Part shown: one piece after another, positions 20,728-60,590 of the stretch | How positions within the stretch are numbered: position 1 is the first letter of the stretch | Layout of the letters: every line of letters starts with the position of its first letter | Source: Candidatus Scatosoma sp. | GTDB taxonomy: Bacteria; Bacillota; Clostridia; Christensenellales; Borkfalkiaceae | Reading direction: 5' to 3' | DNA length: 64,000 nucleotides | Assembly (NCBI GenBank): GCA_045655725.1 | Contig: JAZOPT010000036.1 | Coordinates: 6,542-70,541, forward strand | Notes under the pieces: generated by a model | What the model was told of the DNA's origin: nothing | The model's database searches: none | The model's input: the letters and a program-made list of their open reading frames with translations, nothing else | Made by a program: the position numbers and the translations under genes

Positions 20728-21459
20728 ATGAAAAGCAATACGAAAAGCAATATAAAAAGCGCGATTTTTGCGATATCCATGGCGGTAATTATGGGGTTTG
20801 TTACGGCGTTGGCGTTGTGCGTACAGGCGTTACGAGCTCCAAAGGCGGTGTTTTCGGCGGCGGACGCGGGAATGCGAGTGGTGGTAGATGCAGGGCACGG
20901 CGGCATAGACGGCGGCGTGGTAGGCAGAAAAACGGGCGTTAAGGAAAGCGACCTCAATTTATCCATTTCGCGCAAAACGGCGTTAGTGTTGGAAGATATG
21001 GGCTTTGCCGTTACGCAAACGCGCAAAACGGAAGCGGGTCTGTACGGAACGGCGGCAAAAGGCTTCAAAAAGCGGGATATGCAAAAACGCAAAGAGATTA
21101 TCGCGGAGGCAGACCCTGCTTTGCTCTTGTCTGTGCATCAAAATTTCTATCCTACCCAAATGACCCGCGGAGCGCAAGTTTTTTATGCAAAAAAGGACGA
21201 AAATTCCAAGCGGTTGGCGCTTTGCTTGCAGACAAAGCTCAATGGGTTATACGCGGAAGAGGGGGTGAAAGCGCGGACGGCGAAAACGGGCGAGTTTTTC
21301 ATGCTTACCTGTGCCGACTGTCCGTCGGTGATTGTGGAATGCGGTTTTTTATCCAACGTTGCGGACGAGAAGCTACTTTGCAGCGACGTGTGGCAGCGGC
21401 GGTTGGCGGAGGCGATTGCGGGGGGTGTAATAGCCTACCTCTCCGATAGTATGGCTTGA
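20728..21459 (+). CDS. cwlD: N-acetylmuramoyl-L-alanine amidase, CwlD-like (spore cortex)
   Basis: Signal anchor, VVVDAGHGGIDGG, LLLSVHQNFYP, GAQVFY, ECGFLSN. Confidence 0.88.
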   Translation: MKSNTKSNIKSAIFAISMAVIMGFVTALALCVQALRAPKAVFSAADAGMRVVVDAGHGGIDGGVVGRKTGVKESDLNLSISRKTALVLEDMGFAVTQTRKTEAGLYGTAAKGFKKRDMQKRKEIIAEADPALLLSVHQNFYPTQMTRGAQVFYAKKDENSKRLALCLQTKLNGLYAEEGVKARTAKTGEFFMLTCADCPSVIVECGFLSNVADEKLLCSDVWQRRLAEAIAGGVIAYLSDSMA

Positions 21460-21478
21460 TTTTATAAACGGCGCATCT

Positions 21479-21545
21479 CTGCGTTGCGCTACGTTTTCCT
21501 TGCTCACGTACGAAAGTACGCTCCCGGCGGAAAGCCTCGCGCGCC
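21479..21545 (+). repeat. Intergenic repeat, copy 1 (diverged module 2 with GAAA-tetraloop hairpin)
   Basis: CTGCGTTGCGCTACGTTTTCCTTGCTCACGTACGAAAGTACGCTCCCGGCGGAAAGCCTCGCGCGCC; hairpin CGTAC-GAAA-GTACG at 21507-21520. Confidence 0.85.
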
Positions 21546-21595
21546 TTGACCTGCTTGTTTCTAAAATCAAGCGACTTACTTCCGCGGTTTACGCA

Positions 21596-21662
21596 CTGCG
21601 TTGCGCTGCGTTTTCCTTGCTTACGTACGAAAGTACGCTCCCGACGGAAAGCCTCGCGCGCA
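21596..21662 (+). repeat. Intergenic repeat, copy 2 (117-bp period)
   Basis: Three mismatches relative to copy 1 over about 66 nt; hairpin CGTAC-GAAA-GTACG at 21624-21637. Confidence 0.85.
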
Positions 21663-21720
21663 TTCTTTTGCATTTTCCTCCAAGATATACGCAACACCAA
21701 GAAAAGATTTGCAAAAGTGC

Positions 21721-21749
21721 TTGTCATTTTTCTCCCGTTGTGCTATAAT
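21721..21749 (+). promoter_or_regulatory. Sigma-70-type promoter of mrnC-rlmB-sigH
   Basis: TTGTCA (21721-21726), 17-nt spacer, TATAAT (21744-21749). Confidence 0.6.
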
Positions 21750-21779: not shown

Positions 21780-22214
21780 ATGCAGAAAATCGGCGCGATA
21801 ACGGAAACGGAAGCGGGACTTATCAGCCCCGTTGTTCTTGCGTTCTTGGGGGACGCCGTGTATTCGCTTTGGGTACGGGAACGGCTGGTGCGTTCGGGTG
21901 CGGGAAGCGCGGCAGACTTTCAACGCGCTGCGTCCAAGGTGGAGTCGGCACGCGGTCAAAGCGCGTACTTGGAGAAGATATTGCCCCTGTTTACCGAGCG
22001 GGAAGAGGAAATTTACCGCCGTGGCAGAAACGCGAAAAAGGGCACGAAAAGCAAAAATGCAGGCGCGGTGGAATATAACCGCTCGACGGGGTTTGAGGCG
22101 GTGCTTGGATATTTGCATTTGACGGGGAATAGCGAGCGTATAGAACAGCTTTTATCTGTCATAGACGAAGCGGATTTGAAAGGACAAGCCGCCGCAACCT
22201 ATTTCAAGCCCTAA
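21780..22214 (+). CDS. mrnC: Mini-ribonuclease 3
   Basis: LAFLGDAVYSLWVRERL RNase III-like signature in a 144-aa protein; conserved mrnC-rlmB-sigH neighbourhood. Confidence 0.9.
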   Translation: MQKIGAITETEAGLISPVVLAFLGDAVYSLWVRERLVRSGAGSAADFQRAASKVESARGQSAYLEKILPLFTEREEEIYRRGRNAKKGTKSKNAGAVEYNRSTGFEAVLGYLHLTGNSERIEQLLSVIDEADLKGQAAATYFKP

Positions 22215-23671: not shown

Positions 23672-25483
23672 ATGGCGTACTTGGCATTATACCGTACGTT
23701 TAGACCTACCACTTTAAGCGACGTGGTACGGCAAGAACATATCGTTACGGTGCTCAAAAACCAAATCGCGACGGGTAGGATAGGACACGCTTACCTGTTT
23801 TGCGGTCCGCGCGGTACGGGGAAAACGAGTATCGCGAAAATTTTCGCGGCGGCAATCAACTGCGAGCAGCCCAAAGACGGCTCGCCTTGCGGGAAGTGCG
23901 CGGCGTGTAAAGCGCTTTCCGACCCCTCTAACCTCGATATATCTGAAATAGACGCGGCGTCCAACAACGGCGTGGACGAAATGCGCGATTTACGCGAAAA
24001 AGTGCAATATCCCCCCGTTGCGGGTAAATACAAAGTATATATCATCGACGAAGTGCATATGCTTTCGACGGGAGCATTTAACGCTCTTTTGAAAACGCTG
24101 GAAGAGCCGCCCACGCACGCGGTGTTTATTCTTGCCACCACCGAGAGCGCGAAGATTCCCGCCACCATTTTATCCCGCTGTATGCGGTTCGATTTTAAGC
24201 TGATACCGCAAGAGGATTTGGAAGCGCGGCTTCGTTACGTGTTCGACAGTATCGGAAAAACGTACGAAGAGGAGGCGATTGCAGCGATTGCCCGCGCAGG
24301 TGCGGGGAGTGTGCGTGATATGCTCTCTATTGCCGATACCTGCGTTTCCTATACGGGCGGGAAGCTGACCTATCAGGACGTAACTTCCGTTCTCGGTACA
24401 GCCGATTTTGACGGCGTGGCGGCGCTTTGCGAAGCGGCGTTACAAGGCAATGCGGGCGGGGCGTTTGAAAAAGCGGAAGCCTTCTTGTCTGCAGGCAAAA
24501 GTGTGGGAACGTTGATAAAGGACGTAATGAACTTTTTCCATTCCTGCACGGTGGCGAAAACCTGTCGGGATGGGAAATCTATTTTGGGTTTGCCCGATAC
24601 TACCTACGCAAAAGTGCAAGCGATTGCTCGCGCAACGGACGGACGGCAGCTGCTCCGCGCAACGGAGATTTTTGCGGAAGCGGAACAGACGTTGAAATAT
24701 TCCACCTCTCCGCGAATCGTGTTTGAAACGGCGGTAATGAAGGCAAGTATGCCCCACACCGATTATGATATGGAAGCTCTGCTTGCGCGTATAACGCAAT
24801 TAGAAAACCGCATTACACAGGGCAATTTTGCAACTTCTGCGGCTTCTGCGCCGACTGCTTCGGCGGCGGTATCAGCGGCACAGCCCGTTATGCAAGCGCA
24901 ACAAAAATACGACGAGCCGACCGTAGAAGAACAGTTCATGGACGAACCACCTATGGATATACCGCCTGACGAAGCGGAAACGGGAGGGAACGTGTATTTT
25001 GATGCTCCCCCGCCCCGTAGGGAAAAACCGACGGCGACAACTCCGTCCGTTGCACCCGCAGCACCTGCAACGCCCATAGCACCCGTAGCCCCCGTAGCGG
25101 CAGAGCCTACTGCGCCTGTTGCGCCCGCTCCGTCGGTAAAGCCCGTGCGCCCCATGCAAAAGGGGGATGCGAAATCGACGTTCGGAGCGTTTTTGCGTTG
25201 CTTGCGTAAGACGGGAAAAAGCGGCGTTCTGTTTACCATTTGTATGGATTTAGACAGCGGGTACGAGGGAGACGTATTCGTGCTTTATACGGACAGCGAC
25301 ACCATTTACCGTTCGCTGACCAAGCCCGAGCATTACGCTTTACTGAAAGACTCGTTTGCGGGAATCGGCATAGAGGAATCGGGGTTTGCAGTGCACCAGC
25401 GCGGCAAGCAGGCAGACGATTTTAATCAAAAGTTAGACGAAATTAAAAACACCTTTCAAGGTGTAAAAATAGACGTAAAATAA
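23672..25483 (+). CDS. dnaX: DNA polymerase III subunits gamma/tau
   Basis: YRTFRPTTLSDVVRQEHI, Walker A GPRGTGKTS, zinc module CxxCxxC, Pro/Ala-rich linker. Confidence 0.95.
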   Translation: MAYLALYRTFRPTTLSDVVRQEHIVTVLKNQIATGRIGHAYLFCGPRGTGKTSIAKIFAAAINCEQPKDGSPCGKCAACKALSDPSNLDISEIDAASNNGVDEMRDLREKVQYPPVAGKYKVYIIDEVHMLSTGAFNALLKTLEEPPTHAVFILATTESAKIPATILSRCMRFDFKLIPQEDLEARLRYVFDSIGKTYEEEAIAAIARAGAGSVRDMLSIADTCVSYTGGKLTYQDVTSVLGTADFDGVAALCEAALQGNAGGAFEKAEAFLSAGKSVGTLIKDVMNFFHSCTVAKTCRDGKSILGLPDTTYAKVQAIARATDGRQLLRATEIFAEAEQTLKYSTSPRIVFETAVMKASMPHTDYDMEALLARITQLENRITQGNFATSAASAPTASAAVSAAQPVMQAQQKYDEPTVEEQFMDEPPMDIPPDEAETGGNVYFDAPPPRREKPTATTPSVAPAAPATPIAPVAPVAAEPTAPVAPAPSVKPVRPMQKGDAKSTFGAFLRCLRKTGKSGVLFTICMDLDSGYEGDVFVLYTDSDTIYRSLTKPEHYALLKDSFAGIGIEESGFAVHQRGKQADDFNQKLDEIKNTFQGVKIDVK

Positions 25484-25524
25484 TAAAGGCTCTGTCGCAA
25501 CACTCGGTTGTTTTTTGCCTACAA

Positions 25525-25578
25525 AATGCTACGTAATACGGCGTATAAGACCTTGGTTGCGTACCACAGAGGGTACGC
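25525..25578 (+). repeat. Degenerate member of the intergenic element family (ATGCTACG box plus GTAC-type hairpin)
   Basis: AATGCTACG at 25525-25533; hairpin GCGTACC-ACAGAG-GGTACGC at 25559-25578, followed by GCCCGCGG. A second hairpin GCGTATTG-CAAG-CAATACGC lies at 25625-25644. Confidence 0.4.
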
Positions 25579-25698
25579 GCCCGCGGCATATACTTGTCTT
25601 ACTTGCATTTTATAACGGCAAAACGCGTATTGCAAGCAATACGCTAATCAACCGCTTGTTGTGCCATCGCCCAAAAATAGAATTGGAGGAAAAGTAAA

Positions 25699-26031
25699 AT
25701 GGCAGGATTCAAAGGCGGCAACAACAATATGCAAAACCTGATGCGCCAAGCGCAGAAAATGCAAGAGGAAATGGAAAAGACGGCAGAGCTTCTTGACGAT
25801 TGGGAAGTGGTAGGCACGGCGGCAGGCGAAGCGGTTGTTGTGTACATGAACGCGAAGAAAATTATCAACGGTATCGAATTGGACGAAAGTATCGTCGATC
25901 CCACGGACGTAGAAATGCTGGAAGACCTCATCATGGCAGCCATCAACGACGGTTACGCAAAAGCGGACAAGGTGTATGAAGAGAAGATGGGGAGATATGG
26001 GGATATGGGGGCTCTCGGCGGCATACTCTAA
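25699..26031 (+). CDS. ybaB: Nucleoid-associated protein YbaB/EbfC
   Basis: 110 aa; NMQNLMRQAQKMQEEMEK and the conserved dnaX-ybaB-recR order. Confidence 0.93.
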   Translation: MAGFKGGNNNMQNLMRQAQKMQEEMEKTAELLDDWEVVGTAAGEAVVVYMNAKKIINGIELDESIVDPTDVEMLEDLIMAAINDGYAKADKVYEEKMGRYGDMGALGGIL

Positions 26032-26360
26032 AAACAAAGAATATGCTACGCATTTCTACGTCAAGCTTGCGTTTCCCCTTGGTCATGTACGGGTAAGTAC
26101 ACTCCCTGCGGGGAAGCCGCGCTTTCCTTGAACTGCTTGCATCTTGCTTCGTTTTTCGGGTCAACAGGCTTGGGTGGAAACCAAACTTTCCGCCGTTTTT
26201 CGGGATAAAGAGCTTGCGAGGTAACCATCAGTCGGGATAATAGGCTTGTACGGTTACGAACAGTTGGGGCAATGAACAAGCGGGGTCACCCAACAGTAAA
26301 TTATCTCACGCAAGAAAGATAGAAAGGCTTGGGGGCGGCAACCTGCCGCGTCAGTGGCGA
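26029..26360 (+). repeat. Composite structured intergenic element (module-1 ends flanking module 2 and extra hairpins)
   Basis: It starts on the ybaB TAA with TAAAAACAAAGAATATGCTACG. A 64-nt block at 26097-26160 is identical to 60516-60579. It ends AGATAGAAAGGCTTG...TCAGTGGCGACCCGCCAC, as module 1 does. Confidence 0.8.
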
Positions 26361-26385
26361 CCCGCCACGTTGGAGGGAATAACAC

Positions 26386-26979
26386 ATGGAAATCTTTATC
26401 GAACCTATCGGAAAGCTCGTCAACGAGTTTTCTAAATTGCCGGGAGTCGGCAAAAAAACGGCGCAACGCTACGCCTATAAAATTATCGATATGTCAGAAT
26501 CGGAAGCGCGTGCGTTTGCGGACGCGATTTTGGGCGTGAAACGCAAGGTAAAATACTGCAAAATTTGCGGGAACTTCACCGAAGAGGACGAATGCGCTAT
26601 TTGCCGTGTTCGCGACAAAAGCGTTATCTGCGTAGTCAAAGAACCCAAAGACGTCGCCGCCATTGAAAAATTGCGCGAATTTAAGGGCGTATATCACGTT
26701 CTGCACGGCGTAATCGACCCGCTTGCGGGCGTAAGCCCCAACGATATCCGTATTCGTGAGCTGCTTGCCCGGATTCAAGAGGGTGGAGTGAAGGAAGTAA
26801 TTGTGGCAACCAACCCCGACGTATCGGGCGACGCTACGGCGATGTATCTTGCCAAGCTTATCAAGCCCTTGGATATCAAGGTTACGCGCCTTTCGCGCGG
26901 TATTCCCGTTGGTTCTGAAATAGAATACACCGACGACGTAACGCTTGCTCGTGCGTTTGTCGAAAGAAATCAGATATAA
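26386..26979 (+). CDS. recR: Recombination protein RecR
   Basis: HhH (LPGVGKKTAQR), Cys4 zinc finger (CKICGNF...CAIC), Toprim domain. Confidence 0.96.
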   Translation: MEIFIEPIGKLVNEFSKLPGVGKKTAQRYAYKIIDMSESEARAFADAILGVKRKVKYCKICGNFTEEDECAICRVRDKSVICVVKEPKDVAAIEKLREFKGVYHVLHGVIDPLAGVSPNDIRIRELLARIQEGGVKEVIVATNPDVSGDATAMYLAKLIKPLDIKVTRLSRGIPVGSEIEYTDDVTLARAFVERNQI

Positions 26980-43369: not shown

Positions 43370-44806
43370 ATGTCAGGACTTTTGCTGAAAGGCATTAACA
43401 AAGTGTACCCTTCCGGTGTACAAGCCGTGTTCGATTTCTGTCTCGATATCAGAGATAAAGAATTCATCGTTCTCGTAGGCCCTTCCGGTTGCGGTAAATC
43501 TACCACGCTCCGTATGATCGCAGGTTTGGAAGAAATCTCTTCCGGCGAACTGTATATCGACGGTAAGCTTGTAAACGACGTTGTACCCAAGGACAGAGAT
43601 ATCGCCATGGTTTTCCAGAACTATGCATTGTATCCCCATATGTCCGTGTACGACAACATGGCGTTCGGTTTGAAACTTAGAAAAGTACCGAAGGAAATTA
43701 TCGACCAAAAGGTAAAAGCGGCGGCTGAAATTCTCGGCATCACCGACTACCTTTCCAGAAAACCTAAGGCACTTTCCGGCGGTCAGCGTCAACGTGTTGC
43801 GCTTGGTCGTACCATCGTTCGTGAACCCAAGGTATTCTTGCTCGACGAACCTTTGTCCAACCTCGACGCAAAACTCCGTGCTTCCATGAGAACGGAAATT
43901 TCCAAGCTCCACGCACGTCTTGCTACGACGTTTATCTACGTTACGCACGACCAAGTAGAAGCTATGACGATGGGTACGAGAATCGTTGTTATGAAGGACG
44001 GCTTCATGCAACAAGTAGATACCCCTCAAAACTTGTACGATTATCCTATCAACCTTTTCGTTGCAGGATTCATCGGTACGCCTCAAATGAACTTCTTCAA
44101 GGAATCCACGCTTACCTCCAAGAAAGGTAAAGTGTTTGTAAACTTCATCGGCGGCAACCAAATTTTGCTTCCGAAGAGCGTTGCTTCCAGAATTAAAAAC
44201 ATCAACGAATATCTTGATACGGGTAAGGTAATCACGCTCGGCGTACGTCCCGAAGATATTCACCAAGACCAAGCGTTCATCGCAACGTCTCCCGAAACGG
44301 TTGTAAAAGCACGTGTAGAAGTTATCGAAAAGCTCGGTGCTGAAACGCAAATCTACTGCGAACTTGACCACGAAGGCAAGGAAAGCTCGGTTATCGACAA
44401 CTCCACGCAGATGATCGCGAAGATTTCCAGCCGTGCGGTTGTAGCGTTGAAAGACGTTATCGACCTCGCATTCGACGCACAGCACATTCACCTCTTCGAC
44501 GGCGAAACGGAAGCTACGCTTCTTGAAAGAGACGAGGGCTACGAAGTTATCGAAGAAAATGCGGAAGGTTCGGCGTTCGTGCCTCCCACACCGCAGGAAA
44601 TGCGTGAACGTATCGATTCCGCTCGTATCGTAACGAAGGAAATGAAAGCGCAGGCAAGAAAGGACGCAAGAATGGCGAAGTTGGCTGCGAAGCAGGCGGC
44701 GGTAGCTCCCGTAGAAGAAGCGGAAGCACCCGTTGAAGAAGCTCCCGTAGAGGAAGCTGCTGTGGAAGAAGCTCCCGCAGAAGAAGCAAACAAAGAGCAA
44801 GAATAA
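43370..44806 (+). CDS. Sugar-importer-type ABC ATPase (MsmX/MalK/UgpC-like) with a C-terminal extension of about 100 aa
   Basis: GPSGCGKST, LSGGQRQRVALGR, LLDEPLSNLD and a TOBE-like domain. An extra tail ends in PVEEA-type repeats. No permease gene is adjacent. Confidence 0.9.
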   Translation: MSGLLLKGINKVYPSGVQAVFDFCLDIRDKEFIVLVGPSGCGKSTTLRMIAGLEEISSGELYIDGKLVNDVVPKDRDIAMVFQNYALYPHMSVYDNMAFGLKLRKVPKEIIDQKVKAAAEILGITDYLSRKPKALSGGQRQRVALGRTIVREPKVFLLDEPLSNLDAKLRASMRTEISKLHARLATTFIYVTHDQVEAMTMGTRIVVMKDGFMQQVDTPQNLYDYPINLFVAGFIGTPQMNFFKESTLTSKKGKVFVNFIGGNQILLPKSVASRIKNINEYLDTGKVITLGVRPEDIHQDQAFIATSPETVVKARVEVIEKLGAETQIYCELDHEGKESSVIDNSTQMIAKISSRAVVALKDVIDLAFDAQHIHLFDGETEATLLERDEGYEVIEENAEGSAFVPPTPQEMRERIDSARIVTKEMKAQARKDARMAKLAAKQAAVAPVEEAEAPVEEAPVEEAAVEEAPAEEANKEQE

Positions 44807-44823
44807 TCGTTTATCAAAAACCG

Positions 44824-44858
44824 CAACCCCGTGCATACCGCACGGGGTTGTTTTGTTG
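44824..44858 (+). terminator. Rho-independent terminator
   Basis: Perfect 11-bp stem CAACCCCGTGC / GCACGGGGTTG followed by TTTTGTTG. Confidence 0.85.
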
Positions 44859-44925
44859 TAAATTGAAAAAGACTCCTTTGGAAAGGATGGCCTAAAAGTA
44901 GTAATATTTTTTAGGAAATGTCCTA

Positions 44926-44971
44926 GAATAATATCAAACCACTTGATATTATTCGAGAAATAGAATATAAT
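44926..44971 (+). promoter_or_regulatory. Promoter of the R-M islet overlapped by a 12-bp-arm palindrome (candidate operator)
   Basis: GAATAATATCAA-ACCAC-TTGATATTATTC (44926-44954). TTGATA (44943-44948), 17-nt spacer, TATAAT (44966-44971). The -35 box lies within the right arm. Confidence 0.5.
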
Positions 44972-45004
44972 ATAACTATATAATATTTTATTGAGGTTTT
45001 TGGC

Positions 45005-46075
45005 ATGATTCAATATATGTCGGCAAGAGAAGCCGCGGAAAAATGGAATATATCGCAAAGAAGAGTGTCTATTCTTTGTTCGGAAAACAGAATCCCGAAC
45101 GTTGCAATGCTTGGTAATATGTGGCTTATTCCCCGCGACGCAGAAAAGCCCGTCGATGCAAGAATGAAGCGTAATACCGCGATGGAAAAATCAAGCATGC
45201 ATCCTTTTGTAAAATGGGCAGGTGGAAAAGGTCAGCTTTTAGAAGTTCTTAAAGCAAATCTTCCTCATAGCATGGGAACGGAAATTACAAAATATGCCGA
45301 ACCTTTTGTTGGTGGGGGTGCGCTTTTATTTGCGCTTTTAAACGAATATGCTTTTGAAGAAGTTTATATCAATGACAATAATAAAGAACTTATGAACGCC
45401 TTTACCGTTATAAAAACGAATTGTGAGTCTTTGATTGAGAAATTGCAAAACCTTCAAGGCGAATACGAAAAGCTTTCTATGGAAGCACAACAAGCGTATT
45501 ATTACGCTCAAAGAGATAAGTTTAACGATTTGCAATTAAGCGAAGAAACGGCAACAGAAAAGGCGGCTTTGTTCATCTTTCTTAATAAAACCTGTTTTAA
45601 CGGTCTGTATAGAGTAAATAAGTCGGGGAAATTTAACGTTCCTGCGGGGAAATATAAAAACCCGTTAATTTGCGATAAAGAAAACTTAATAAATATCTCA
45701 AAAAGACTGCAAAACGTTGTTATACGCTCTTGCGATTATCACGATGTAGAGTCGTTTGCGGACAGTAAAACGTTGGTTTATTTTGATCCGCCTTACCGTC
45801 CTTTGAATGTTACTTCTGCGTTTACGTCTTATACGGAAAATCAATTTACTGATAAAGACCAAACCGAACTTGCACAATTATACAAGAAATTATCCAATAA
45901 AGGGGTAAAAGTATTGTTAAGTAATTCTGATCCGCACAATGTCAATTTTGAAGATAATTTTTTTGACGATTTATATGAGGAATTTGATGTTCAGCGCATT
46001 ACCGCAGTGAGAATGATAAACAGCAAAGCGGAAAAACGCGGAAACGTTACAGAGCTTTTAATTAAAAATTATTAA
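45005..46075 (+). CDS. Dam-family N6-adenine DNA methyltransferase (GATC-type) with an N-terminal excisionase/MerR-like HTH domain
   Basis: The N-terminal 50 aa are MSAREAAEKWNISQRRVSILCSENRIPNVAMLGNMWLIPRD. They are followed by PFVKWAGGKGQLL, EPFVGGGALL, NDNN and DPPY (alpha-class order). Confidence 0.9.
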   Translation: MIQYMSAREAAEKWNISQRRVSILCSENRIPNVAMLGNMWLIPRDAEKPVDARMKRNTAMEKSSMHPFVKWAGGKGQLLEVLKANLPHSMGTEITKYAEPFVGGGALLFALLNEYAFEEVYINDNNKELMNAFTVIKTNCESLIEKLQNLQGEYEKLSMEAQQAYYYAQRDKFNDLQLSEETATEKAALFIFLNKTCFNGLYRVNKSGKFNVPAGKYKNPLICDKENLINISKRLQNVVIRSCDYHDVESFADSKTLVYFDPPYRPLNVTSAFTSYTENQFTDKDQTELAQLYKKLSNKGVKVLLSNSDPHNVNFEDNFFDDLYEEFDVQRITAVRMINSKAEKRGNVTELLIKNY

Positions 46076-46087
46076 GGAGATTTATAA

Positions 46088-46945
46088 ATGAGAGAGTTTA
46101 ATACTTGGCTGGGTCAGTTTAAGAGTAGTATTTCCGATTATGCGTATTATGTTGACTTTCAAAAAGTTTACGATAAGGTTGAAGCAATAAAAGTAGAACT
46201 TAATATTTTGAATTCGCTTATCGGTTCAGCGGATATAGAAAAAGATTTTGATAAACTTCTTTCTAAATACCCTGAAATCTTGAAATGTATTCCACTTCTT
46301 TTGGCGGTAAGAGAAAATGAAATTCACGCGATGGATAGCGACGGGGCATTTATTTACCATTTTAATAAAGCTAATTATACCGTAGAACAATACAAAGTAT
46401 TCATGAGAAAAACGGGTCTATTTGATTTAATCAGCAATCATTTGATAAATAATCTTGTGGATTATGCAACAGGCGTTGAAGTTGGTCTTGATAGCAACGG
46501 CAGAAAAAACCGTGGTGGTCATCTTATGGAAGATTTGGTAGAATCCTACATAAAGAGAGCGGGATTGGTTAAAGGTCAAACTTACTTTAAGGAAATGTAT
46601 CTTTCTGAAATTGAAACAAAATGGGGGCTTGATCTTTCTTCGTTGTCTAACAATGGAGAAGCAAAGAAAAGATTTGATTTTGTGATTAAATCAAATAACG
46701 TTGTTTATGCTATTGAAACAAATTTCTACGCTTCTTCGGGCTCAAAATTAAATGAAACTGCTCGTAGTTATAAAATGCTTGCGCACGAGTCAAAGGCGAT
46801 AGACGGATTTGCTTTTGTATGGTTTACCGACGGAATTGGTTGGAAATCTGCAAGAAACAACTTAAAAGAAACGTTTGACGTGTTGGATAATATCTACAAT
46901 ATTACCGATTTGGAAAACGGCATAATTGACGAACTTATAAAATAA
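46088..46945 (+). CDS. DpnII/MboI-family type II restriction endonuclease (GATC)
   Basis: Recalled similarity to DpnII along the whole length: N-terminus NTWLGQFKSSISDYAYYVDFQKVYDKVEAIKVELNILNSLIGS, core KRFDFVIK...ETNFY.SSGSKLNETARSYK. Confidence 0.85.
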   Translation: MREFNTWLGQFKSSISDYAYYVDFQKVYDKVEAIKVELNILNSLIGSADIEKDFDKLLSKYPEILKCIPLLLAVRENEIHAMDSDGAFIYHFNKANYTVEQYKVFMRKTGLFDLISNHLINNLVDYATGVEVGLDSNGRKNRGGHLMEDLVESYIKRAGLVKGQTYFKEMYLSEIETKWGLDLSSLSNNGEAKKRFDFVIKSNNVVYAIETNFYASSGSKLNETARSYKMLAHESKAIDGFAFVWFTDGIGWKSARNNLKETFDVLDNIYNITDLENGIIDELIK

Positions 46946-46946
46946 T

Positions 46947-47696
46947 ATGGCTACAAAAAAGAACACAATTAAATGGGAGCCTGATAATTTCGAGCTGGAA
47001 ACGAACACGGTATGGTCTTTCCCCAATCGCGGTAAATGGGCAACGCACGACGCAAAATGGCGTGGAAATTGGTCGCCTTATATACCGCGTAACATAATAC
47101 TTCGATATTCGCAAGAGGGGGATTGGATTCTCGATCAATTTGCGGGCGGCGGAACTACGCTTGTCGAAGCAAAGCTTCTAAATAGAAACTGTATCGGCGT
47201 GGACGTGAATCCGATTGCTTTAGAACGGTGCAAGGATAAATGCTCCTTTGAGCGTGAACAGCAGGGCAACGTTGATATTCGGCTTGGAGATGCGCGCAAG
47301 CTTGATTTTATTGAAAACGAATCGGTGGATTTGATTTGTACACACCCGCCGTATGCCAATATAATTGAGTATAGCGAAGATATCGAAAGCGACCTTTCAC
47401 TTTTGGAAATGAAAGACTTTTTAACAGAAATGTACAAGGTTGCCGAGGAAAGTTACAGAGTATTGAAAAAGGGCAAATTTTGCGCTATTTTAATGGGCGA
47501 TACCCGTAAAAAAGGCATGGTGCAGCCGCTCGCTTTTGAAACCATGCGTATTTTTGAACTCGTGGGGTTTAAGACAAAAGAAATTATCATTAAAGAACAA
47601 CACAACTGCAAAGCAACGGGGTTTTGGAAAACAAGCAGTATAAAACATAATTTCTTGCTTCTCGCACATGAATATTTATTTGTATTTAAGAAGTAA
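46947..47696 (+). CDS. Second DNA methyltransferase (N6A/N4C type; motif I precedes motif IV)
   Basis: LDQFAGGGTTLVEA (motif I) at about aa 70 and THPPYANI (motif IV) at about aa 133. Starts 1 nt after the endonuclease stop. Confidence 0.8.
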   Translation: MATKKNTIKWEPDNFELETNTVWSFPNRGKWATHDAKWRGNWSPYIPRNIILRYSQEGDWILDQFAGGGTTLVEAKLLNRNCIGVDVNPIALERCKDKCSFEREQQGNVDIRLGDARKLDFIENESVDLICTHPPYANIIEYSEDIESDLSLLEMKDFLTEMYKVAEESYRVLKKGKFCAILMGDTRKKGMVQPLAFETMRIFELVGFKTKEIIIKEQHNCKATGFWKTSSIKHNFLLLAHEYLFVFKK

Positions 47697-47714
47697 TAGT
47701 TTTTCTTTACCAAC

Positions 47715-47744
47715 AAAAAAACGCTCCTATGGGAGCGTTTTTGC
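47715..47744. terminator. Bidirectional terminator
   Basis: AAAAACGCTCC / GGAGCGTTTTT stem; lies between the convergent methylase gene and mnmG. Confidence 0.8.
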
Positions 47745-47745
47745 G

Positions 47746-49620
47746 TTATTTTCTTGTGGCAAGCCAAACCATCAACACGGATACGTCCGCGGGGTTGACT
47801 CCTGAAATTCTGCCCGCTTGACCTAAGTTTAAGGGTCGAACACGGTTTAATTTTTCCTGTGCTTCCAAGCGCAAGCCCAAAATTTCATCGTAGTTGATAT
47901 CGGGCGGGAGCAGCTTATCCTCCAAGCGCTTGGCTTTTTCTATCTGCTCAAAGCCCTGTTTTAAGTACCCCTCGTACCGAACGGCAATTTCCGCCGTTTC
48001 TAAAACGTCTTTTCGGTATTCTCCGAATACACCGAATTTCGCTATGATATCCTTTAAGGGCACGGAACGCTTTAACATATCCGCATACGAAACGCTGCCG
48101 CTAGGCGCGTTGTAGCCGTAGTCTGCCAAAAATTCTGCCGCCTGCTTTTGCGGAACTCGTTCTTGCATTTGGGATAAAAGTTGTTCGTAGGCTTGCTTTC
48201 TTTCCTGATACCGTAAATACCGCTCGTTCGTTACCAAGCCTACCGCTTTACCCTTTTCGGTTAAACGGAAATCGGCGTTGTCTTGGCGTAAGATAATGCG
48301 GTGCTCGGCGCGGGAGGTCATCATACGATATGGCTCGTCCGTGCCTTTGGTAACCAAATCGTCTATCAGTACGCCGATATACGCCTCGTCGCGGCGTAAC
48401 ACAAAGGGGGGCAAACCGCGCAATTTCAGCGAAGCGTTCAAGCCCGCCATAAGACCCTGCGCCGCCGCTTCTTCATACCCAGACGTTCCGTTGATTTGAC
48501 CTGCCGTATATATGCCCGATATTTTCTTAAATTCTAAGGTGGGCAGCACGTCCAACGTGTCGATGCAATCGTATTCTATGGCGTAGCCGTAACGCATGAT
48601 GTCCGCGTTTTCCAAGCCCGCAATAGACGAATACATCTGCCGTTGCACGTCGTGCGGCATGGAGGTGGACATACCCTGCACGTAAACCTCCAACGTGTCC
48701 GCGCCCTCGGGTTCTAAAAATATCTGGTGGCGTTCTTTGTCCTTGAAACGCACCACCTTCGTTTCGATAGAGGGGCAATACCGCGGTCCTGTGGATACAA
48801 TCGTGCCGTTGTAGAGCGGAGAACGCTCTAAATTGTCCAAAATAACCTCGTGCGTATGCAGGTTGGTATAGGTGAGATAGCAGGGCATTTTGTTTTCGGG
48901 TGGAACGTCGTGCAGGAAAGAAAACGGGTAAATATCCACGTCGCCGTTTTGGATTTCGCATTTAGAATAATCAATCGTTCTGCCGTCCACGCGCGCGGGA
49001 GTACCCGTCTTAAACCGCCGAACGTTAAAGCCCAAATCTATCAAATTTTTCGTCAAAAAGGTAGCGGGCGCAAACCCGTTCGGACCCGATTTTTGTACCA
49101 CGTCGCCCGTAATGGTTTCGCCGTTGAGATACACGCCCGTGCACAAAATCACAGCACGGCAGTTTATCACGCCGCCGTAGGAGGTCTTTACCCCCACGCA
49201 CGCGCCGTTTTCCACCAAAATTTCGCTTGCTTCCGCTTGAATGATACGAAGGTTAGGCGTGTTTTCCAACACTCGTTTCATCTCGCGGTGATAGGCGTTT
49301 TTATCCGACTGCGCGCGCAAGCTTTGTACCGCCGCACCCTTGCCGACGTTCAGCATACGTATTTGCAGAGCGGTATTATCCGCAATAATGCCCATTTCGC
49401 CGCCCAAAGCGTCTATTTCGCGGACAAGATGACCCTTTGCCGTGCCGCCGATAGAGGGGTTGCAGGGCAAAAACGCAATGCTATCCAAATTGAGCGTCAA
49501 AAGAGCGGTTTTTTGTCCTGTGCGCGCCAAAGCCAACGCGGCTTCACAGCCCGCGTGCCCTGCGCCGACCACCACCGCGTCCGCCGTATATTCTGTAAAC
49601 GTTACCTTACTGTTTGTCAT
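47746..49620 (-). CDS. mnmG: tRNA uridine 5-carboxymethylaminomethyl modification enzyme MnmG (GidA)
   Basis: VVVGAGHAGCEAALALAR FAD motif; full-length GidA, 624 aa. Confidence 0.97.
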   Translation of the reverse strand: MTNSKVTFTEYTADAVVVGAGHAGCEAALALARTGQKTALLTLNLDSIAFLPCNPSIGGTAKGHLVREIDALGGEMGIIADNTALQIRMLNVGKGAAVQSLRAQSDKNAYHREMKRVLENTPNLRIIQAEASEILVENGACVGVKTSYGGVINCRAVILCTGVYLNGETITGDVVQKSGPNGFAPATFLTKNLIDLGFNVRRFKTGTPARVDGRTIDYSKCEIQNGDVDIYPFSFLHDVPPENKMPCYLTYTNLHTHEVILDNLERSPLYNGTIVSTGPRYCPSIETKVVRFKDKERHQIFLEPEGADTLEVYVQGMSTSMPHDVQRQMYSSIAGLENADIMRYGYAIEYDCIDTLDVLPTLEFKKISGIYTAGQINGTSGYEEAAAQGLMAGLNASLKLRGLPPFVLRRDEAYIGVLIDDLVTKGTDEPYRMMTSRAEHRIILRQDNADFRLTEKGKAVGLVTNERYLRYQERKQAYEQLLSQMQERVPQKQAAEFLADYGYNAPSGSVSYADMLKRSVPLKDIIAKFGVFGEYRKDVLETAEIAVRYEGYLKQGFEQIEKAKRLEDKLLPPDINYDEILGLRLEAQEKLNRVRPLNLGQAGRISGVNPADVSVLMVWLATRK

Positions 49621-53410: not shown

Positions 53411-54802
53411 ATGGAAAGACTTACGTTAAAACAGCTGAACGCAGACGTGTCGCAATATGGCGGCAAATCGGTAACGGTAGCGGGTTGGGCAAGGACCATT
53501 CGTGATTCCAAGGCGTTTGGATTTATCGAGCTCAACGACGGGAGCTGTTTCAAAAGCACGCAAATCGTATTCGAGCGGGCGAATATAAGCAATTACGACG
53601 AAATTGCGCACGGAAACGTGGGTATGTCGCTGATTGTCAAGGGGGAAGTGGTATTAACTCCCGAAAACAAACAGCCGTACGAAATCAAGGCGACGGAGAT
53701 AGCGATAGAGGGAGCTTCCACGCCCGATTATCCCTTGCAAAAGAAACGCCACTCGGTGGAATTTTTGCGGGAAATCGCCTATTTGCGCCCCCGTACCAAT
53801 CTTTTTGGCGCGGTGTTTAGAGTCCGCAGTGAAGCGGCGATTGCGGTGCATAAATTTTTCAATGAACGCGGATTTGTCTACGTGCATACGCCCATTATCA
53901 CGGGTAGCGATTGCGAGGGCGCGGGTGCGATGTTCCAAGTAACCACTTTGGATATGGACGCTCTTTCCAAGGGTGAGAAATTAGATTATAAATCGGACTT
54001 TTTCGGCAAAAAAGCCGCGCTTACGGTGTCGGGTCAGTTGAATGCGGAAACGTATGCGATGGCGTTTGGGAACGTATATACGTTTGGGCCTACCTTCCGT
54101 GCGGAGCATTCCAACACGGCGCGCCACGCTGCGGAATTTTGGATGATAGAGCCTGAAATGGCGTTCTGCGACCTCGCGGGCGACATGGACGTAGCGGAAG
54201 CAATGGTGAAATACGTCATCGATTACGTAAGCGAAACGTGCGCGGACGAGATTAACTTCTTTAATCAGTTTGTGGATACAGGCTTAAAGGAACGGTTAAA
54301 GAACGTTTCCGAAAACGCGTTTGTTCGCTTGACGTATACGGAAGCGATAGAGATATTAAAGCAAAACGCGGACAGGTTTGACGATAAAAACATTTTCTGG
54401 GGCAAGGATTTACAGAGCGAACACGAACGTTTCCTTACGGAAAGCGTGTTCAAAAAACCCGTGTTCCTTACCGATTATCCCAAGGAAATCAAGGCGTTTT
54501 ACATGAAGCTGAACCCCGACAACAAAACGGTGGCGGCGGCAGACTTGTTAGTGCCGGGTATCGGGGAATTGGTAGGCGGTTCGCAAAGAGAGGACGACTA
54601 CGATAAATTGGTAGCTCGTATCAAAGAGCTTGGTATGAATCCCGAGGATTATTCTTGGTATCTCAATTTACGCAAATACGGCGGAACGACGCACAGCGGC
54701 TTCGGTCTTGGTTTCGAGCGTATGATTATGTATTTAACAGGCGTTGCGAATATCCGCGATGTGGTGCCGTTCCCGCGCACGGTTAGCAATCTCGAATACT
54801 AA
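53411..54802 (+). CDS. asnS: Asparagine--tRNA ligase
   Basis: Class IIb synthetase: OB anticodon domain, [30 protein letters not shown]. Confidence 0.95.
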
Positions 54803-54946
54803 AAACGAAGAATATGCTACGGCGGGTGCGCCCGCAGCGAAACCGTATCTATCCTCTTATGGGGAAGTAAGATAGGTGCGTGTACGCGAGCGTAACGGTG
54901 TTTACGGATAAAGGATAGAAAGACTTGTCAGTGGCGACTCGCCACC
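54800..54946 (+). repeat. Structured intergenic element, module 1 (asnS-plsX copy)
   Basis: It begins on the asnS TAA. About 90% identical by eye to 60350-60498. Hairpins GCGGG-TGCG-CCCGC and GTGGCG-ACT-CGCCAC. Confidence 0.85.
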
Positions 54947-59700: not shown

Positions 59701-60352
59701 GCGTAAAATTACCAACTTGGGTGCGGTAAACCCCAACGCCGTGGAAGAATACGAGTACGAAAAACAGCATTGCGACGAAATGATCACCCAGCGCGACGAC
59801 CTGCAAAAAGCTATTGACGATTTGCAAGCGGCGTTGGACGAGATTCGCGGGGAAATGCTGCGTATCTTCAACGAGGGCTTTGAGCAAATCAACGAGAACT
59901 TCAAAATTACGTTCAAAGAACTGTTCGGCGGCGGGAAAGCGGAATTGCAAATCAATTACGACGAAGCGGAAGACCCGCTTGCGGCAGGTATAGAAATCGT
60001 GGCTTGTCCTCCGGGCAAAAAGCTGACGAAAATATCCCTGCTTTCGGGCGGCGAACGCGCGCTTACGGCAATCGCGATTCTGTTTGCGATTTTGCGTGCA
60101 CGGCCTATGCCGTTCTGTATCTTGGACGAGATAGAAGCGGCTCTGGACGACGCAAACGTGGATAGATTTGCTTCTTACCTCAAACGTTTCGCGGAAGAAA
60201 CGCAGTTTATCGTTATCACGCACAGAAAGCCGACGATGAACCAAGCAGACTCCCTGTTCGGCGTTACCATGCAGGAAAAGGGTGTTTCAAAAATCGTTTC
60301 CGTGAAGCTGGCTGAGGTGGAGAGTAAGTTGGGCGCAGGCACTGTGGAGTAA
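56756..60352 (+). CDS. smc: Chromosome partition protein Smc
   Basis: TTG start. FKSFADKT...GPNGCGKSN, long coiled coils, hinge, LSGGERALTAIA, ILDEIEAALDDANV. Confidence 0.97.
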   Translation: MNLKEIQLVGFKSFADKTTIRFDEGVTCIVGPNGCGKSNVADAVRWVLGEQSAKSLRGSNMQDVIFGGTLSRNPQSFCEVTLVFDNEQHIFDMPTPEVSMTRRLYRTGESKYLINNQPSRLRDLVTLFHGIGLGKEGYSIIGQGKVEQIMNARSEDRRLIFEEALGLMVYKTRKQEIERKIESANDNLFIYRQRIDEVEGRLGRMSKEAAKAKEYLEYSEALKLQEANTYIYRYENAESEKSKFKKDIAVISDKIIDLNTKIELINRRLEENREKINQADIRLTDLNDKRVELSVGNERKDGELKLVQERIKTYKSQIEAATEMLAASKVRIGEIDDEIALTTKKNAEDTKRIAEVETQAEVLRSAIAALDKKIEVFEKISDENRLSQLGAADDLSELKKNLGTLAARMEATKEKIKELQSAVEKTKERKERLSDELSSVKKDLKSLKDFTSTGMRDFEEKQEEAREMQLTINDFNQELFNANGQIASLKENLEMYVSLKNRFEGYKESVRRLLSVAKTNPEIGKRLHGALADVVSTEQRYETAIETAIGGAMQNVVTPTADDARYLIEYLKRANGGIVTFLPVSGMRPRPDSREIRRALDERGAMGLATELVKYDDYYYNVVSNLLGNTLICDNIANATAIAKKYGNLFKIVTLDGDTIATGGSMTGGSRRKDAGSFLSTERKIQECKENIAKKQKYIEKLKTAIAESEKARAEAERAVEALREKYQGANSEIAGLMQRQTALEQQISETDLDLETYTQALHEFEEKLKSLEYEEAHSTQSEAEISSLRQKAEAEMASQKKQSDLFREERAEKSKILRETELEYTALSLAIEKQTDAIARLTVEKEELVKRILDVEYEKTETQTRLNGLEAEAQEKELTEEEKAAVQAIVDEISAINAEKETVNAQQLTLEEEKTQLQETLTKQSDKRYKCEIEISKIDTNLENMRQRVEEAYGMDYEACLPYRKESFDVAEAANLITALKRKITNLGAVNPNAVEEYEYEKQHCDEMITQRDDLQKAIDDLQAALDEIRGEMLRIFNEGFEQINENFKITFKELFGGGKAELQINYDEAEDPLAAGIEIVACPPGKKLTKISLLSGGERALTAIAILFAILRARPMPFCILDEIEAALDDANVDRFASYLKRFAEETQFIVITHRKPTMNQADSLFGVTMQEKGVSKIVSVKLAEVESKLGAGTVE

Positions 60353-60590
60353 AAACGAAGAATATGCTACGGCGGGTGCGCCCGCGGCGAAACCTTATCT
60401 ATCCTTTTTTTGGGGGAAGTAAGATAGGTGCGTGTACGCGAGCGTAACGGTGTTTACGTAAGAATGATAGAAAGGTTGGTCAGTGGCGACCCGCCACCTT
60501 GGTCGTGTACGTAAAGTACACTCCCTGCGGGGAAGCCGCGCTTTCCTTGAACTGCTTGCATCTTGCTTCGTTTTTCGGGGTAACAAGCTT
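60350..60590 (+). repeat. Structured intergenic element, module 1 (60350-60498) joined to module 2 (60497-60590)
   Basis: It begins on the smc TAA. Module 2 contains a 64-nt block (60516-60579) identical to 26097-26160 and the hairpin GTGTAC-GTAAA-GTACAC. Confidence 0.85.

What the first reader, a model, noticed from the sequence alone, without database searches (positions are those of the whole stretch)
60497..60590. Second repeat module (about 94 nt) with a 64-nt perfectly identical block shared by the smc-ftsY and ybaB-recR spacers
The segments 60497-60590 and 26077-26171 are nearly identical. A 64-nt exact match (60516-60579 = 26097-26160) reads GTACACTCCCTGCGGGGAAGCCGCGCTTTCCTTGAACTGCTTGCATCTTGCTTCGTTTTTCGGG.

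Just upstream, each copy has a GTAC-based hairpin whose stem and loop differ: TGTAC-GGGTAA-GTACA versus GTGTAC-GTAAA-GTACAC. Structure is kept while sequence drifts.

In the smc-ftsY spacer this module is fused directly to the 3' end of module 1. The family is therefore modular and mosaic. A 64-nt identity in non-coding DNA 34 kb apart implies recent copying or strong constraint.
Basis: seen in the sequence. Interest (0 to 1): 0.65.

Follow-up and report, generated by a model that had tools for sequence, protein, structure and literature searches.

The report
Structured hairpin repeat behind stop codons
The 64-base identical block is the outer half of a ~127-base hairpin-shaped DNA repeat that has spread to many spots just behind gene stop codons in a group of uncultured gut Clostridia; this kind of repeat is known from other bacteria, but this family is undescribed.

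Summary
60516-60579 equals 26097-26160 exactly, and the match runs 66 nt (60514-60579 = 26095-26160).

The 94-nt "module 2" is not a unit. It is the tip and 3' arm of a ~127-nt rod-like imperfect hairpin, here called R1.
- A full copy sits at 26030-26156, directly behind the ybaB stop codon.
- In the smc-ftsY spacer the R1 5' head (60351-60371) still pairs perfectly with the tail (60566-60575). "Module 1" (60372-60497) is nested in the 5' arm.
- The window holds 5-6 copies, all on the + strand.

A degenerate core found about 76 real loci in MAGs of one gut Clostridia clade. Across 79 copies, 25 of 41 base pairs covary.

About half of the copies abut a co-oriented stop codon. That codon is TAA in 88% of cases, against 60% background.

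Orthologous spacers in close relatives range from an empty 12-54 nt, through remnants, to full or tandem copies. Copies are more alike within a genome than between genomes.

No match was found in Rfam, phage or plasmid collections, and no transposase lies nearby.

Best reading: a new family of BOX/ERIC-like interspersed structured repeats, co-transcribed as 3'UTR hairpins. How it spreads and what it does to RNA are unproven.

The parts
26030..26156 (+). Full R1 element in the ybaB-recR spacer. Its terminal helix P1 (26030-26039 AAAAACAAAG with 26147-26156 CTTCGTTTTT) includes the last two bases of the ybaB stop codon (TAA, 26029-26031). It contains the 64-nt block 26097-26160.
   Evidence: Covariance-model hit 26025-26165, 130.5 bits, E 1e-35. 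The MFE structure is a single rod. YbaB and RecR were identified by Pfam.
60351..60371 (+). R1 5' head in the smc-ftsY spacer. The P1 5' strand AAAAACGAAG (60351-60360) overlaps the smc stop codon TAA (60350-60352). The P2 5' strand is ATGC (60364-60367).
   Evidence: It is perfectly complementary to 60566-60575 and 60558-60561 (read). The same 22-mer stands at 26029 and 54800.
60372..60497 (+). 'Module 1' body. This is a separate sequence of about 126 nt nested in the R1 5' arm. It replaces the 5' strands of helices P3-P6.
   Evidence: Direct repeats D3 and D7 with 54822-54946. It folds on its own within the spacer, but its structure is only weakly supported (z -2.05 and -1.56). The orthologous spacer in L081 has an uninterrupted R1.
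60498..60584 (+). R1 apical domain and 3' arm: the reported finding. It comprises the apical hairpin 60505-60521, the 64-nt block 60516-60579, and tail P1 3' strand 60566-60575.
   Evidence: Covariance-model hit 60451-60584, 54 bits. The exact repeat with 26095-26160 is shown.
21448..21582 (+). R1 copy of a second subfamily behind the amidase gene. Its P1 5' strand covers the last codon and the TGA stop codon.
   Evidence: Covariance-model hit, 108 bits. Fold -45.1 kcal/mol, z -3.5.
21597..21664 (+). Partial tandem R1 copy (model positions 33-105). A strong promoter-like site follows at 21721-21749.
   Evidence: Covariance-model hit, 54 bits. Direct repeat D4. Promoter scan.
25508..25632 (+). 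Diverged R1 variant lacking P5/P6, in the dnaX-ybaB spacer. It is absent from that spacer in all six relatives examined.
   Evidence: Covariance-model hit, 40 bits, E 6e-9. Fold z -5.0. The spacer is 215 nt here against 15-57 nt in L082-L089.
54800..54946 (+). R1-type head (54800-54821, including the stop codon TAA of the class II aminoacyl-tRNA synthetase gene) followed by a module-1 body. There is no R1 tail. It lies in the spacer before plsX.
26318..26368 (+). The 3' half of module 1 (GATAGAAAGG...GTCAGTGGCGACCCGCCAC), just upstream of the recR ribosome-binding site.

Best explanation
The block belongs to R1, a ~125-130-nt non-coding interspersed repeat that folds into one long imperfect hairpin. 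It has seven helices. The head and tail pair with each other, and the tip is a GTAC-loop-GTAC hairpin flanked by GGTC and CTCCC.

Shown:
- R1 is multi-copy. The window has 5-6 copies in 64 kb, and a clade of uncultured gut Clostridia has several copies or more per MAG.
- It lies in intergenic DNA, mostly in the sense orientation.
- In about half of the copies its head starts at or inside the stop codon of the upstream gene, often supplying the AA of TAA.
- It is gained, lost, duplicated in tandem, internally deleted and interrupted by other hairpin modules between close relatives.
- Copies within a genome resemble each other more than copies at the same site in other genomes. This means recent copying or gene conversion, and it explains the 64-nt identity.

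Inferred:
- It behaves as a non-autonomous selfish repeat of the BOX/ERIC/Correia kind.
- It is tolerated right behind stop codons, because that is the only free site in tight gene junctions.
- It is transcribed as part of the upstream gene's 3'UTR or intercistronic RNA. There the ~50-bp rod would act as a barrier to exonucleases or as a site for a double-strand-specific RNase, changing the stability of the flanking message.

The enzyme or process that copies it is unknown.
For: Family and copy number:
- The degenerate core is found in 81 loci. About 76 are real, nearly all from Ca. Scatosoma, Ca. Borkfalkia and unnamed Clostridia MAGs, with up to 9 per MAG.
- The covariance model finds 98 copies in 77 sources, and 5 hits in the window (4 full-length, 1 partial), all on the + strand.
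- In bovine gut metagenomes, k-mer depth over the element is about 50-94 against 5-7 in the flanks.

Structure:
- On a MAFFT alignment, 83% of cells are paired, against 35-53% when the partners are slid.
- There are 353 double-sided changes against 89-145 in the slid controls, 25 of 41 pairs covary, and 0 of 500 shuffles reach the observed score.
- MFE folds of diverse copies give the same rod.

Context:
- In co-directional contexts, 35 copies are sense and 7 antisense.
- 46-48 of 98 copies (by the distance cut-off used) have a co-oriented stop codon within a few bases of the head.
- Of the 48 counted, the codon is TAA in 42, against 205 of 342 in the background (p = 1e-4).

Turnover:
- ybaB-recR spacer: full copies in L084 and L086, a tandem pair in L085, a 58-nt mini-element in L088/L089, and other repeats in L082.
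- dnaX-ybaB spacer: a copy only in the window.
- smc-ftsY spacer: 12-26 nt in distant relatives and 39-54 nt in many close ones. L092 keeps a solo head. R1 is present in 5 of 80 loci.
- An uninterrupted R1 stands behind smc in L081 and L049.

Homogenisation: mean identity is 0.78 within genomes and 0.64 between them. The nearest neighbour lies in the same genome for 43 of 69 copies.

Transcription (weak): metatranscriptome contigs cover the elements, and one runs from the dnaX 3' end into the spacer copy.

Precedent: pneumococcal BOX repeats mirror the coding bias, pair their termini, and supply the stop codon of 36 genes (PMC3049150).
Against: - No transposase, target-site duplication or autonomous parent was found (and inspection of ends).
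- The folded strand is undecided. G-U pairs (215) exceed A-C mismatches (161), but the antisense strand folds more stably on average (-51 against -46 kcal/mol). For the ybaB-recR copy the values are -50 against -39.
- The RNA evidence comes from unstranded contigs of a single metatranscriptome, which may contain DNA.
- Gene orientation and replication direction could not be separated.
- The strict search pattern makes part of the apical motif invariant by construction and biases the census.
- Genes in the loci were called with a crude ORF rule.
- The proposed RNA-level effect was not tested at all.
Confidence: 0.6

Rival explanations
1. R1 is a host-functional structured RNA element, forming a 3'UTR regulon. 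A clade-specific protein, or the terminating ribosome, recognises the conserved tip (GGUC / GUAC-loop-GUAC / CUCCC). Placement at the stop codon couples translation termination to mRNA fate or to expression of the next gene.
For: - Covariation is extensive while the internal loops and tip stay conserved.
- The element shows a sense bias of 35:7.
- The head is fused to the stop codon in about half of the copies, so a terminating ribosome must open P1.
- Orthologous copies show compensatory changes: L003 GCTCGTC/GACGAGC against L005 GCCCGCCTCA/TGAGGCGGGC.
Against: - Close relatives manage without it at the same junctions, with empty spacers of 12-54 nt.
- Copies decay, are deleted internally or are interrupted.
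- Host genes are functionally unrelated housekeeping genes.
- Antisense copies exist.
- Conservation of the tip is partly an artefact of the search pattern, and the tip degenerates in lower-GC relatives.
Confidence: 0.15
2. R1 is a single-stranded-DNA hairpin element copied by a single-copy HUH/Y1 transposase. It would be a REPIN/RAYT-like system in which the conserved apical hairpin is the enzyme's binding site.
For: - Both strands fold, and the antisense strand often folds better.
- The loop length of the tip varies from 4 to 7 nt while the stem is kept. This fits recognition of a hairpin rather than of duplex DNA.
- Copies are homogeneous within genomes, with vertical persistence at some sites.
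- Copies in one locus are almost always co-oriented. This is also expected for strand-biased ssDNA transposition.
Against: - There is one conserved hairpin per element, not an inverted doublet of REPs, and no GTAG-type motif.
- No Y1-transposase-like or any other recurrent gene lies next to copies in about 0.6 Mb of flanks.
- The one gene flanked by inverted copies is ispDF.
Confidence: 0.12
3. R1 is an ordinary MITE: an internally deleted insertion sequence whose terminal inverted repeats are used by a transposase encoded elsewhere.
For: - The termini are complementary (TAAAACG...CGTTTTA).
- Internally deleted minis keep both ends (L088).
- Presence and absence vary between relatives.
Against: - The terminal sequences differ between subfamilies and covary (AAAACGCA/TGCGTTTT, AACTGCG/CGCAGTT, GCTCGTC/GACGAGC, TTTTTCGTC.../...GACGAAAAA). 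The most conserved part is the tip, the reverse of what transposase-bound ends predict.
- No consistent target-site duplication was found (inspection).
- No parent IS was seen.
Confidence: 0.08
4. R1 is a family of elaborate intrinsic terminators, like the pneumococcal SPRITE repeat.
For: - It lies at gene 3' ends.
- The tail ends in a T-run, and the A-tract/T-tract symmetry resembles bidirectional terminators.
- A canonical terminator follows only 13 of 91 copies, and only 3 of 22 between convergent genes.
Against: - The T-run is only 3-5 nt and is paired with the A-tract. The base of the stem is weak.
- Copies sit inside conserved gene clusters (dnaX-ybaB-recR, smc-ftsY), where strong termination would be harmful.
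- The simple terminator scan did not call them.
Confidence: 0.05

Closest known systems
BOX elements of Streptococcus pneumoniae (boxA-boxB(n)-boxC)
   Same: - Small interspersed non-coding repeats of a Gram-positive bacterium, modular and mosaic.
- Tightly folded, with the two ends paired.
- Orientation mirrors the coding bias, and they are co-transcribed with neighbours.
- In 36 genes the repeat supplies the stop codon.
- Restricted to a narrow clade and judged parasitic, with slow turnover (PMC3049150).
   Different: - A different clade: uncultured gut Clostridia.
- No sequence relationship was tested or is expected.
- R1 is one rod with a conserved tip, not a variable number of boxB units.
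- No IS with similar ends is known here. BOX ends resemble ISSpn2.
ERIC/IRU elements of Enterobacteriaceae and Vibrio
   Same: An imperfect palindrome of about 127 bp, in transcribed intergenic regions, with orientation-dependent effects on mRNA stability (as summarised in PMC3049150, and from my own knowledge).
   Different: A different phylum and sequence. As far as I know, ERIC is not reported to be locked to stop codons.
Correia repeat-enclosed elements (CREE/NEMIS) of Neisseria
   Same: Hairpin-forming repeats of 100-150 bp that are co-transcribed and are bound or cleaved by RNase III. They change expression of adjacent genes and are mobile between strains (PMC2649163).
   Different: CREE have defined terminal inverted repeats and a TA duplication (my own knowledge), and can create promoters. 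R1 shows no duplication, and its ends vary.
REP/REPIN-RAYT systems
   Same: Extragenic hairpin repeats that form within-genome populations, persist vertically, and are predicted to fold in ssDNA or mRNA (PMC3116915).
   Different: REPINs are inverted doublets of short REPs and are linked to a flanked RAYT gene. R1 has a single conserved tip hairpin, and no such gene was found near it.
SPRITE (pneumococcal terminator-like repeat)
   Same: A repeat enriched close to the 3' ends of genes (PMC3049150).
   Different: SPRITE is an 18-bp duplex followed by a long U-rich tract. R1 is a ~50-bp rod with a short U-run that is itself paired.

Membership tests
Any Rfam 15 family | Covariance-model score at or near the family's gathering threshold | tested here: not met
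   There were 0 hits at gathering threshold in the whole window. A permissive scan of 25400-26450 gave only chance-level hits with E of 5 or more.
BOX-like interspersed repeat (kind, not homologous family) | Multi-copy, intergenic, clade-restricted, with the two ends paired in a folded structure | tested here: met
BOX-like interspersed repeat (kind, not homologous family) | The repeat often overlaps the extreme 3' end of a gene and supplies its stop codon | tested here: met
   Of 48 abutting stop codons, 42 are TAA, and 31 merge into the A-tract of P1.
BOX elements proper (S. pneumoniae) | Sequence homology to the boxA, boxB and boxC modules | not tested
   No BOX models or sequences were available in the tools. 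The taxon is different.
REP/REPIN-RAYT | Short (20-40 nt) REP palindromes arranged as inverted doublets | tested here: not met
   Each element is a single ~127-nt rod with one conserved apical hairpin.
REP/REPIN-RAYT | A RAYT (Y1 transposase) gene flanked by the repeats | tested here: inconclusive
   No recurrent or transposase-like ORF was found in about 0.6 Mb around the copies. The gene flanked by inverted copies in L021 is ispDF. Whole genomes could not be searched.
MITE | Conserved terminal inverted repeats recognised by a transposase | tested here: inconclusive
   The ends are complementary, but they differ between subfamilies and covary. The tip, not the ends, is the conserved part.
MITE | Target-site duplication flanking each copy | tested here: not met
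   TA or TAA on both sides occurs in only about half of the copies inspected, and is absent from the window copies.
Integron attC site | R''/R' core sites (RYYYAAC ... GTTRRRY) at the base, in arrays of cassettes next to intI | tested here: not met
   The base sequences do not fit the cores. The flanking genes are conserved housekeeping genes in conserved order.
Intrinsic terminator | A stable GC-rich stem immediately followed by a U-tract | tested here: inconclusive
   The tail's T-run is 3-5 nt in 85 of 98 copies and is paired with the 5' A-tract. The consensus scan did not call the elements as terminators.

The most novel reading that the evidence does not exclude
R1 is not just a tolerated parasite. 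It would be a clade-specific system in which a dedicated factor recognises the conserved tip. Candidates are a domesticated HUH-type enzyme acting on the DNA hairpin, or an RNA-binding protein or RNase acting on the transcript. The factor would install or use the element exactly at stop codons, so that the terminating ribosome opens helix P1 and thereby sets the fate of the message or of the next cistron.
Probability: 0.15. Interest if true: 0.75.

Novelty: new member of a known kind. Interest (0 to 1): 0.4.

Why it matters
- It gives a name, a structure and a searchable model to a repeat that fills many intergenic spacers in an abundant but uncultured group of gut Clostridia from cattle, rabbit, deer, chicken and human samples.
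- Such repeats break metagenome assemblies. Contigs end at the element.
- They mislead ORF callers and are candidate post-transcriptional modulators of housekeeping operons (dnaX-ybaB-recR, rnc-smc-ftsY).
- With 25 covarying pairs, the family is also a clean natural data set on how a hairpin repeat keeps its fold while its sequence turns over.
- It is an independent Gram-positive parallel to pneumococcal BOX elements, including the habit of supplying stop codons.

Tried and rejected
- **RNAalifold on the raw MAFFT alignment.** It recovered only the apical hairpin. The full structure came from single-sequence folds plus pair counting by hand.
- **Choosing the strand by thermodynamics or by G-U against A-C counts.** Contradictory.
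- **Separating the transcription link from the replication link.**
  - Whole-locus GC skew is confounded by coding strand.
  - GC3 skew is invalid. Genes on both strands show the same negative coding-strand GC3 skew in most MAGs, so it reflects codon usage.
- **Regex search for orphan heads and tails, as a trace of an autonomous parent.** The patterns were poorly specific and gave nothing usable.
- **RAYT-like arrangement.** The only gene flanked by inverted copies is ispDF. Recurrent neighbours are housekeeping genes.
- **attC, target-site duplication and terminator readings.** Rejected or left open; see the membership tests.
- **Other collections.**
  - Viral contigs gave one chance pattern hit and no model hit.
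  - Plasmid and phage collections gave no match.
  - The literature held no mention of the motif or of repeats in these taxa.
- **Stranded RNA data.** Only one metatranscriptome holds the organism, and only as contigs.

Full report
**Observation**

- 60516-60579 and 26097-26160 are identical. The exact match is 66 nt long (26095-26160 = 60514-60579).
- The two ~94-nt segments agree at 88 of 95 aligned positions.

**The block is part of a larger unit**

Two tandem, diverged relatives of the block lie in a fourth spacer, at 21479-21679 (D4).

I derived a degenerate core from the four copies: GTACRCTCCCNNCGG(2-3)AGCC(0-2)GCGC. I scanned it over one genome per GTDB species.
- It returned 81 loci, of which about 76 are real.
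- Nearly all come from MAGs labelled Candidatus Scatosoma, Candidatus Borkfalkia or unnamed Clostridia, from rabbit, ruminant, chicken and human gut.
- There are up to nine matches per MAG.

Printed in register, the copies share about 60 nt upstream and about 40 nt downstream of the core. The unit is therefore about 125-130 nt. The ybaB-recR copy is complete: the sequence AAGAATATGCTACGCATTTCTACGTCAAGCTTGCGTTTCCCCTTGGTC in front of the block belongs to it.

**Structure**

Minimum-free-energy folds of unrelated copies all give the same single rod. The rod has these parts:
- a terminal helix P1 between head and tail, for example (T)AAAACGnn with nnCGTTTT(A);
- five further helices (P2-P6) separated by small loops;
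- an apical domain, the seventh helix: GG-UC-RYGUAC, a loop of 4-7 nt, then GUACRY-UC-CC.

I counted this 41-pair structure on a plain MAFFT alignment of 79 copies.

| Measure | As drawn | Controls |
|---|---|---|
| Cells paired | 83% | 35-53% with partners slid |
| Cells changed on both sides | 353 | 89-145 with partners slid |
| Pairs that covary | 25 of 41 | - |
| Shuffles reaching the observed covariation score | - | 0 of 500 |

Examples of pairs that change together:
- ATGCG/CGCAT, ATACG/CGTAT, ACACG/CGTGT, AAGCG/CGCTT and AGACG/CGTCT;
- AAGC/GCTT, GGGC/GCCC and AGGC/GCCT;
- TTTGCC/GGCAAA, TTCCCC/GGGGAA and TTCTCC/GGAGAA.

Caveat: the 3' half of the apical motif is invariant partly because the search pattern required it. 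In copies found later by the model alone, it is visibly degenerate.

**Copies in the window**

A covariance model built from the alignment (R1) finds these copies, all on the + strand:

| Coordinates | Bits | Notes |
|---|---|---|
| 26025-26165 | 130 | complete copy, ybaB-recR spacer |
| 21448-21582 | 108 | second subfamily, behind the amidase gene |
| 60451-60584 | 54 | the reported finding, smc-ftsY spacer |
| 21597-21664 | 54 | partial tandem copy |
| 25508-25632 | 40 | previously unnoticed variant, dnaX-ybaB spacer |

In the smc-ftsY spacer the element is split.
- The head AAAAACGAAG (60351-60360) overlaps the smc stop codon. It pairs perfectly with CTTCGTTTTT (60566-60575).
- ATGC (60364-60367) pairs with GCAT (60558-60561).
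- Between the head and the point where R1 resumes at 60498 lies module 1 (60372-60497). It replaces the 5' strands of the inner helices.
- The orthologous spacer of a relative (L081) carries an uninterrupted R1 directly behind smc, followed by two partial tandem copies. L049 also has R1 there.

Module 1 is thus nested in R1 and does not sit in front of an independent "module 2".

Other genomes show different insertions into the R1 5' arm: at a comparable junction in L018, L019, L027 and L066, and at a different point in L058.

**Genomic context**

Among 98 model hits in 77 sources:
- 68 have a co-oriented upstream ORF.
- In co-directional gene contexts, 35 copies are sense and 7 antisense. The ORF caller was crude and produces some false "opposite" calls.
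- 46-48 hits (depending on the distance cut-off) have the stop codon of that ORF within a few bases of the head.
- Of the 48 counted, the codon is TAA in 42, against 205 of 342 for other genes (Fisher p = 1e-4).
- In 31 cases the TAA runs straight into the A-tract of P1 (TAAAACG...). A few ORFs end inside the head.

Neighbouring genes are unrelated housekeeping genes: obg, ychF, clpX-like, cotF, ypeB, ABC transporters, smc and ffh. No transposase-like or otherwise recurrent gene accompanies the copies. The one gene flanked by inverted copies is ispDF.

**Turnover between relatives**

I fetched RecR orthologues at 89-95% identity with their contexts.

*ybaB-recR spacer*
- Full R1 in L084 and L086.
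- Two tandem copies in L085.
- A 58-nt mini-element retaining only P1-P3 in L088/L089: TAAAAACGACGTATATACGTCGCAATATTTCGTCTTGCTCGTATCTACGCCGTTTTA.
- Entirely different GC-rich repeats in L082.

*dnaX-ybaB spacer*
- 15-57 nt in all of these relatives.
- 215 nt, with an R1 variant, only in the window.

*smc-ftsY junction* (80 FtsY-orthologous metagenome loci)
- 12-26 nt in distant relatives.
- 39-54 nt in many close ones. L092 has a solo R1 head followed directly by the ribosome-binding site.
- Hundreds of nt elsewhere, filled by R1 in five loci or by unrelated repeats in others.

*Within against between genomes*
- Copies are more alike within a genome (mean identity 0.78) than between genomes (0.64).
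- The nearest relative of a copy lies in the same genome for 43 of 69 copies.
- The window's smc-ftsY copy is about 60% identical (58-60%) to the orthologous copies in L081 and L049, yet 100% identical over 64 nt to the ybaB-recR copy 34 kb away.

This is the signature of recent copying or gene conversion within a genome.

**Other evidence**

- In bovine gut metagenomes, k-mer depth over the element is about ten times that of the flanks, and contigs break there.
- One metatranscriptome holds contigs that cover R1 and module 1. One contig runs from the dnaX 3' end through the spacer copy. The contigs are unstranded and may include DNA, so transcription is suggested but not shown.
- Rfam has no matching family.
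- Phage, plasmid and viral collections hold no copy.
- The literature search found nothing on this motif or on repeats in these taxa.

**What could not be settled**

- *Which strand folds.* Sense G-U pairs outnumber A-C mismatches (215 against 161). But the antisense strand is on average more stable, and much more so for the ybaB-recR copy (-50 against -39 kcal/mol).
- *Orientation relative to replication or transcription.* GC3 skew in most of these MAGs is a codon-usage effect, so the two could not be separated.
- *Target-site duplication.* No consistent duplication flanks the copies.
- *Termination.* A canonical terminator follows only 13 of 91 copies, and R1's own T-run is 3-5 nt. A role in termination can be neither claimed nor excluded.

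**Interpretation**

R1 is a new family of small interspersed structured repeats. The closest analogue in behaviour is the pneumococcal BOX element, which:
- is modular and tightly folded, with paired ends;
- mirrors the coding bias and is co-transcribed;
- supplies the stop codon of 36 genes;
- is restricted to a narrow clade and was judged parasitic, with slow turnover (PMC3049150).

ERIC, the Correia elements (RNase III substrates; PMC2649163) and REPINs (PMC3116915) are further parallels.

A simple reason for the stop-codon position is that in ancestral 12-26-nt junctions the only insertion site that spares both the upstream ORF and the downstream ribosome-binding site is directly behind the stop codon. 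The enrichment of TAA and its fusion with P1 suggest that the element often brings or reuses that codon.

That the transcribed rod protects or exposes the flanking message to RNases is an inference from the known families. It was not tested here.

Noticed in passing
window 54822-54946 and 60372-60497; 3' half also at 26318-26368: 'Module 1' is a second repeat of about 126 nt. It always follows an R1-type head. Its 3' hairpin GTCAGTGGCGAC(C/T)CGCCAC ends 12-25 nt before the start codons of plsX and recR. Its own fold is only weakly supported (z -1.6 to -2.1). It was not found in any fetched MAG locus, but it occurs in bovine gut metagenome and metatranscriptome contigs.
   Followed up: partly
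window 26157-26260: Three successive short repeats of the R1 tail extension (CGGG-T/A-nAAnA-GRGCTTG). They look like stacked remnants of earlier tails. The first is followed by a terminator-like hairpin at 26173-26194 and a weak promoter-like site at 26214-26241.
   Followed up: partly
window 21721-21749: A near-consensus sigma-70-type promoter (TTGTCA, 17 nt, TG-TATAAT; 11 of 12 matches) lies between the tandem R1 copies and a 144-aa gene that has only an RNase III catalytic domain (Mini-III-like, 21780-22214).
   Followed up: no
L082 2721-3003; L049 7440-7900; L021 6460-6560: Relatives carry other families of GC-rich hairpin repeats in the same spacers. Examples are GGCTCCCTCCCCGAGGGAGC, CCCCTTCGGGGC, GGGGGAGGGGTAGGGGAGGGG and a poly-C run. 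Intergenic mosaics of several repeat families seem typical of the clade.
   Followed up: no
L101 and L103, smc-ftsY spacers (1220-1501 and 1259-1501): These spacers are built from a different short motif repeated many times (TGACGG/TGACAA...). It is unrelated to R1.
   Followed up: no
L021 6319-6455: An R1 copy lies antisense to the surrounding genes and directly abuts the start codon of ispDF. A second, sense copy behind the same gene has the gene's TAG stop codon inside its head.
   Followed up: yes
window 44001-48000, with 44698-44778: This region has lower G+C (0.40 against about 0.49). It contains 15-nt tandem coding repeats (GAAGAAGCTCCCGTn) inside overlapping long ORFs on both strands (43370-44806 + and 43373-45058 -).
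   Followed up: no
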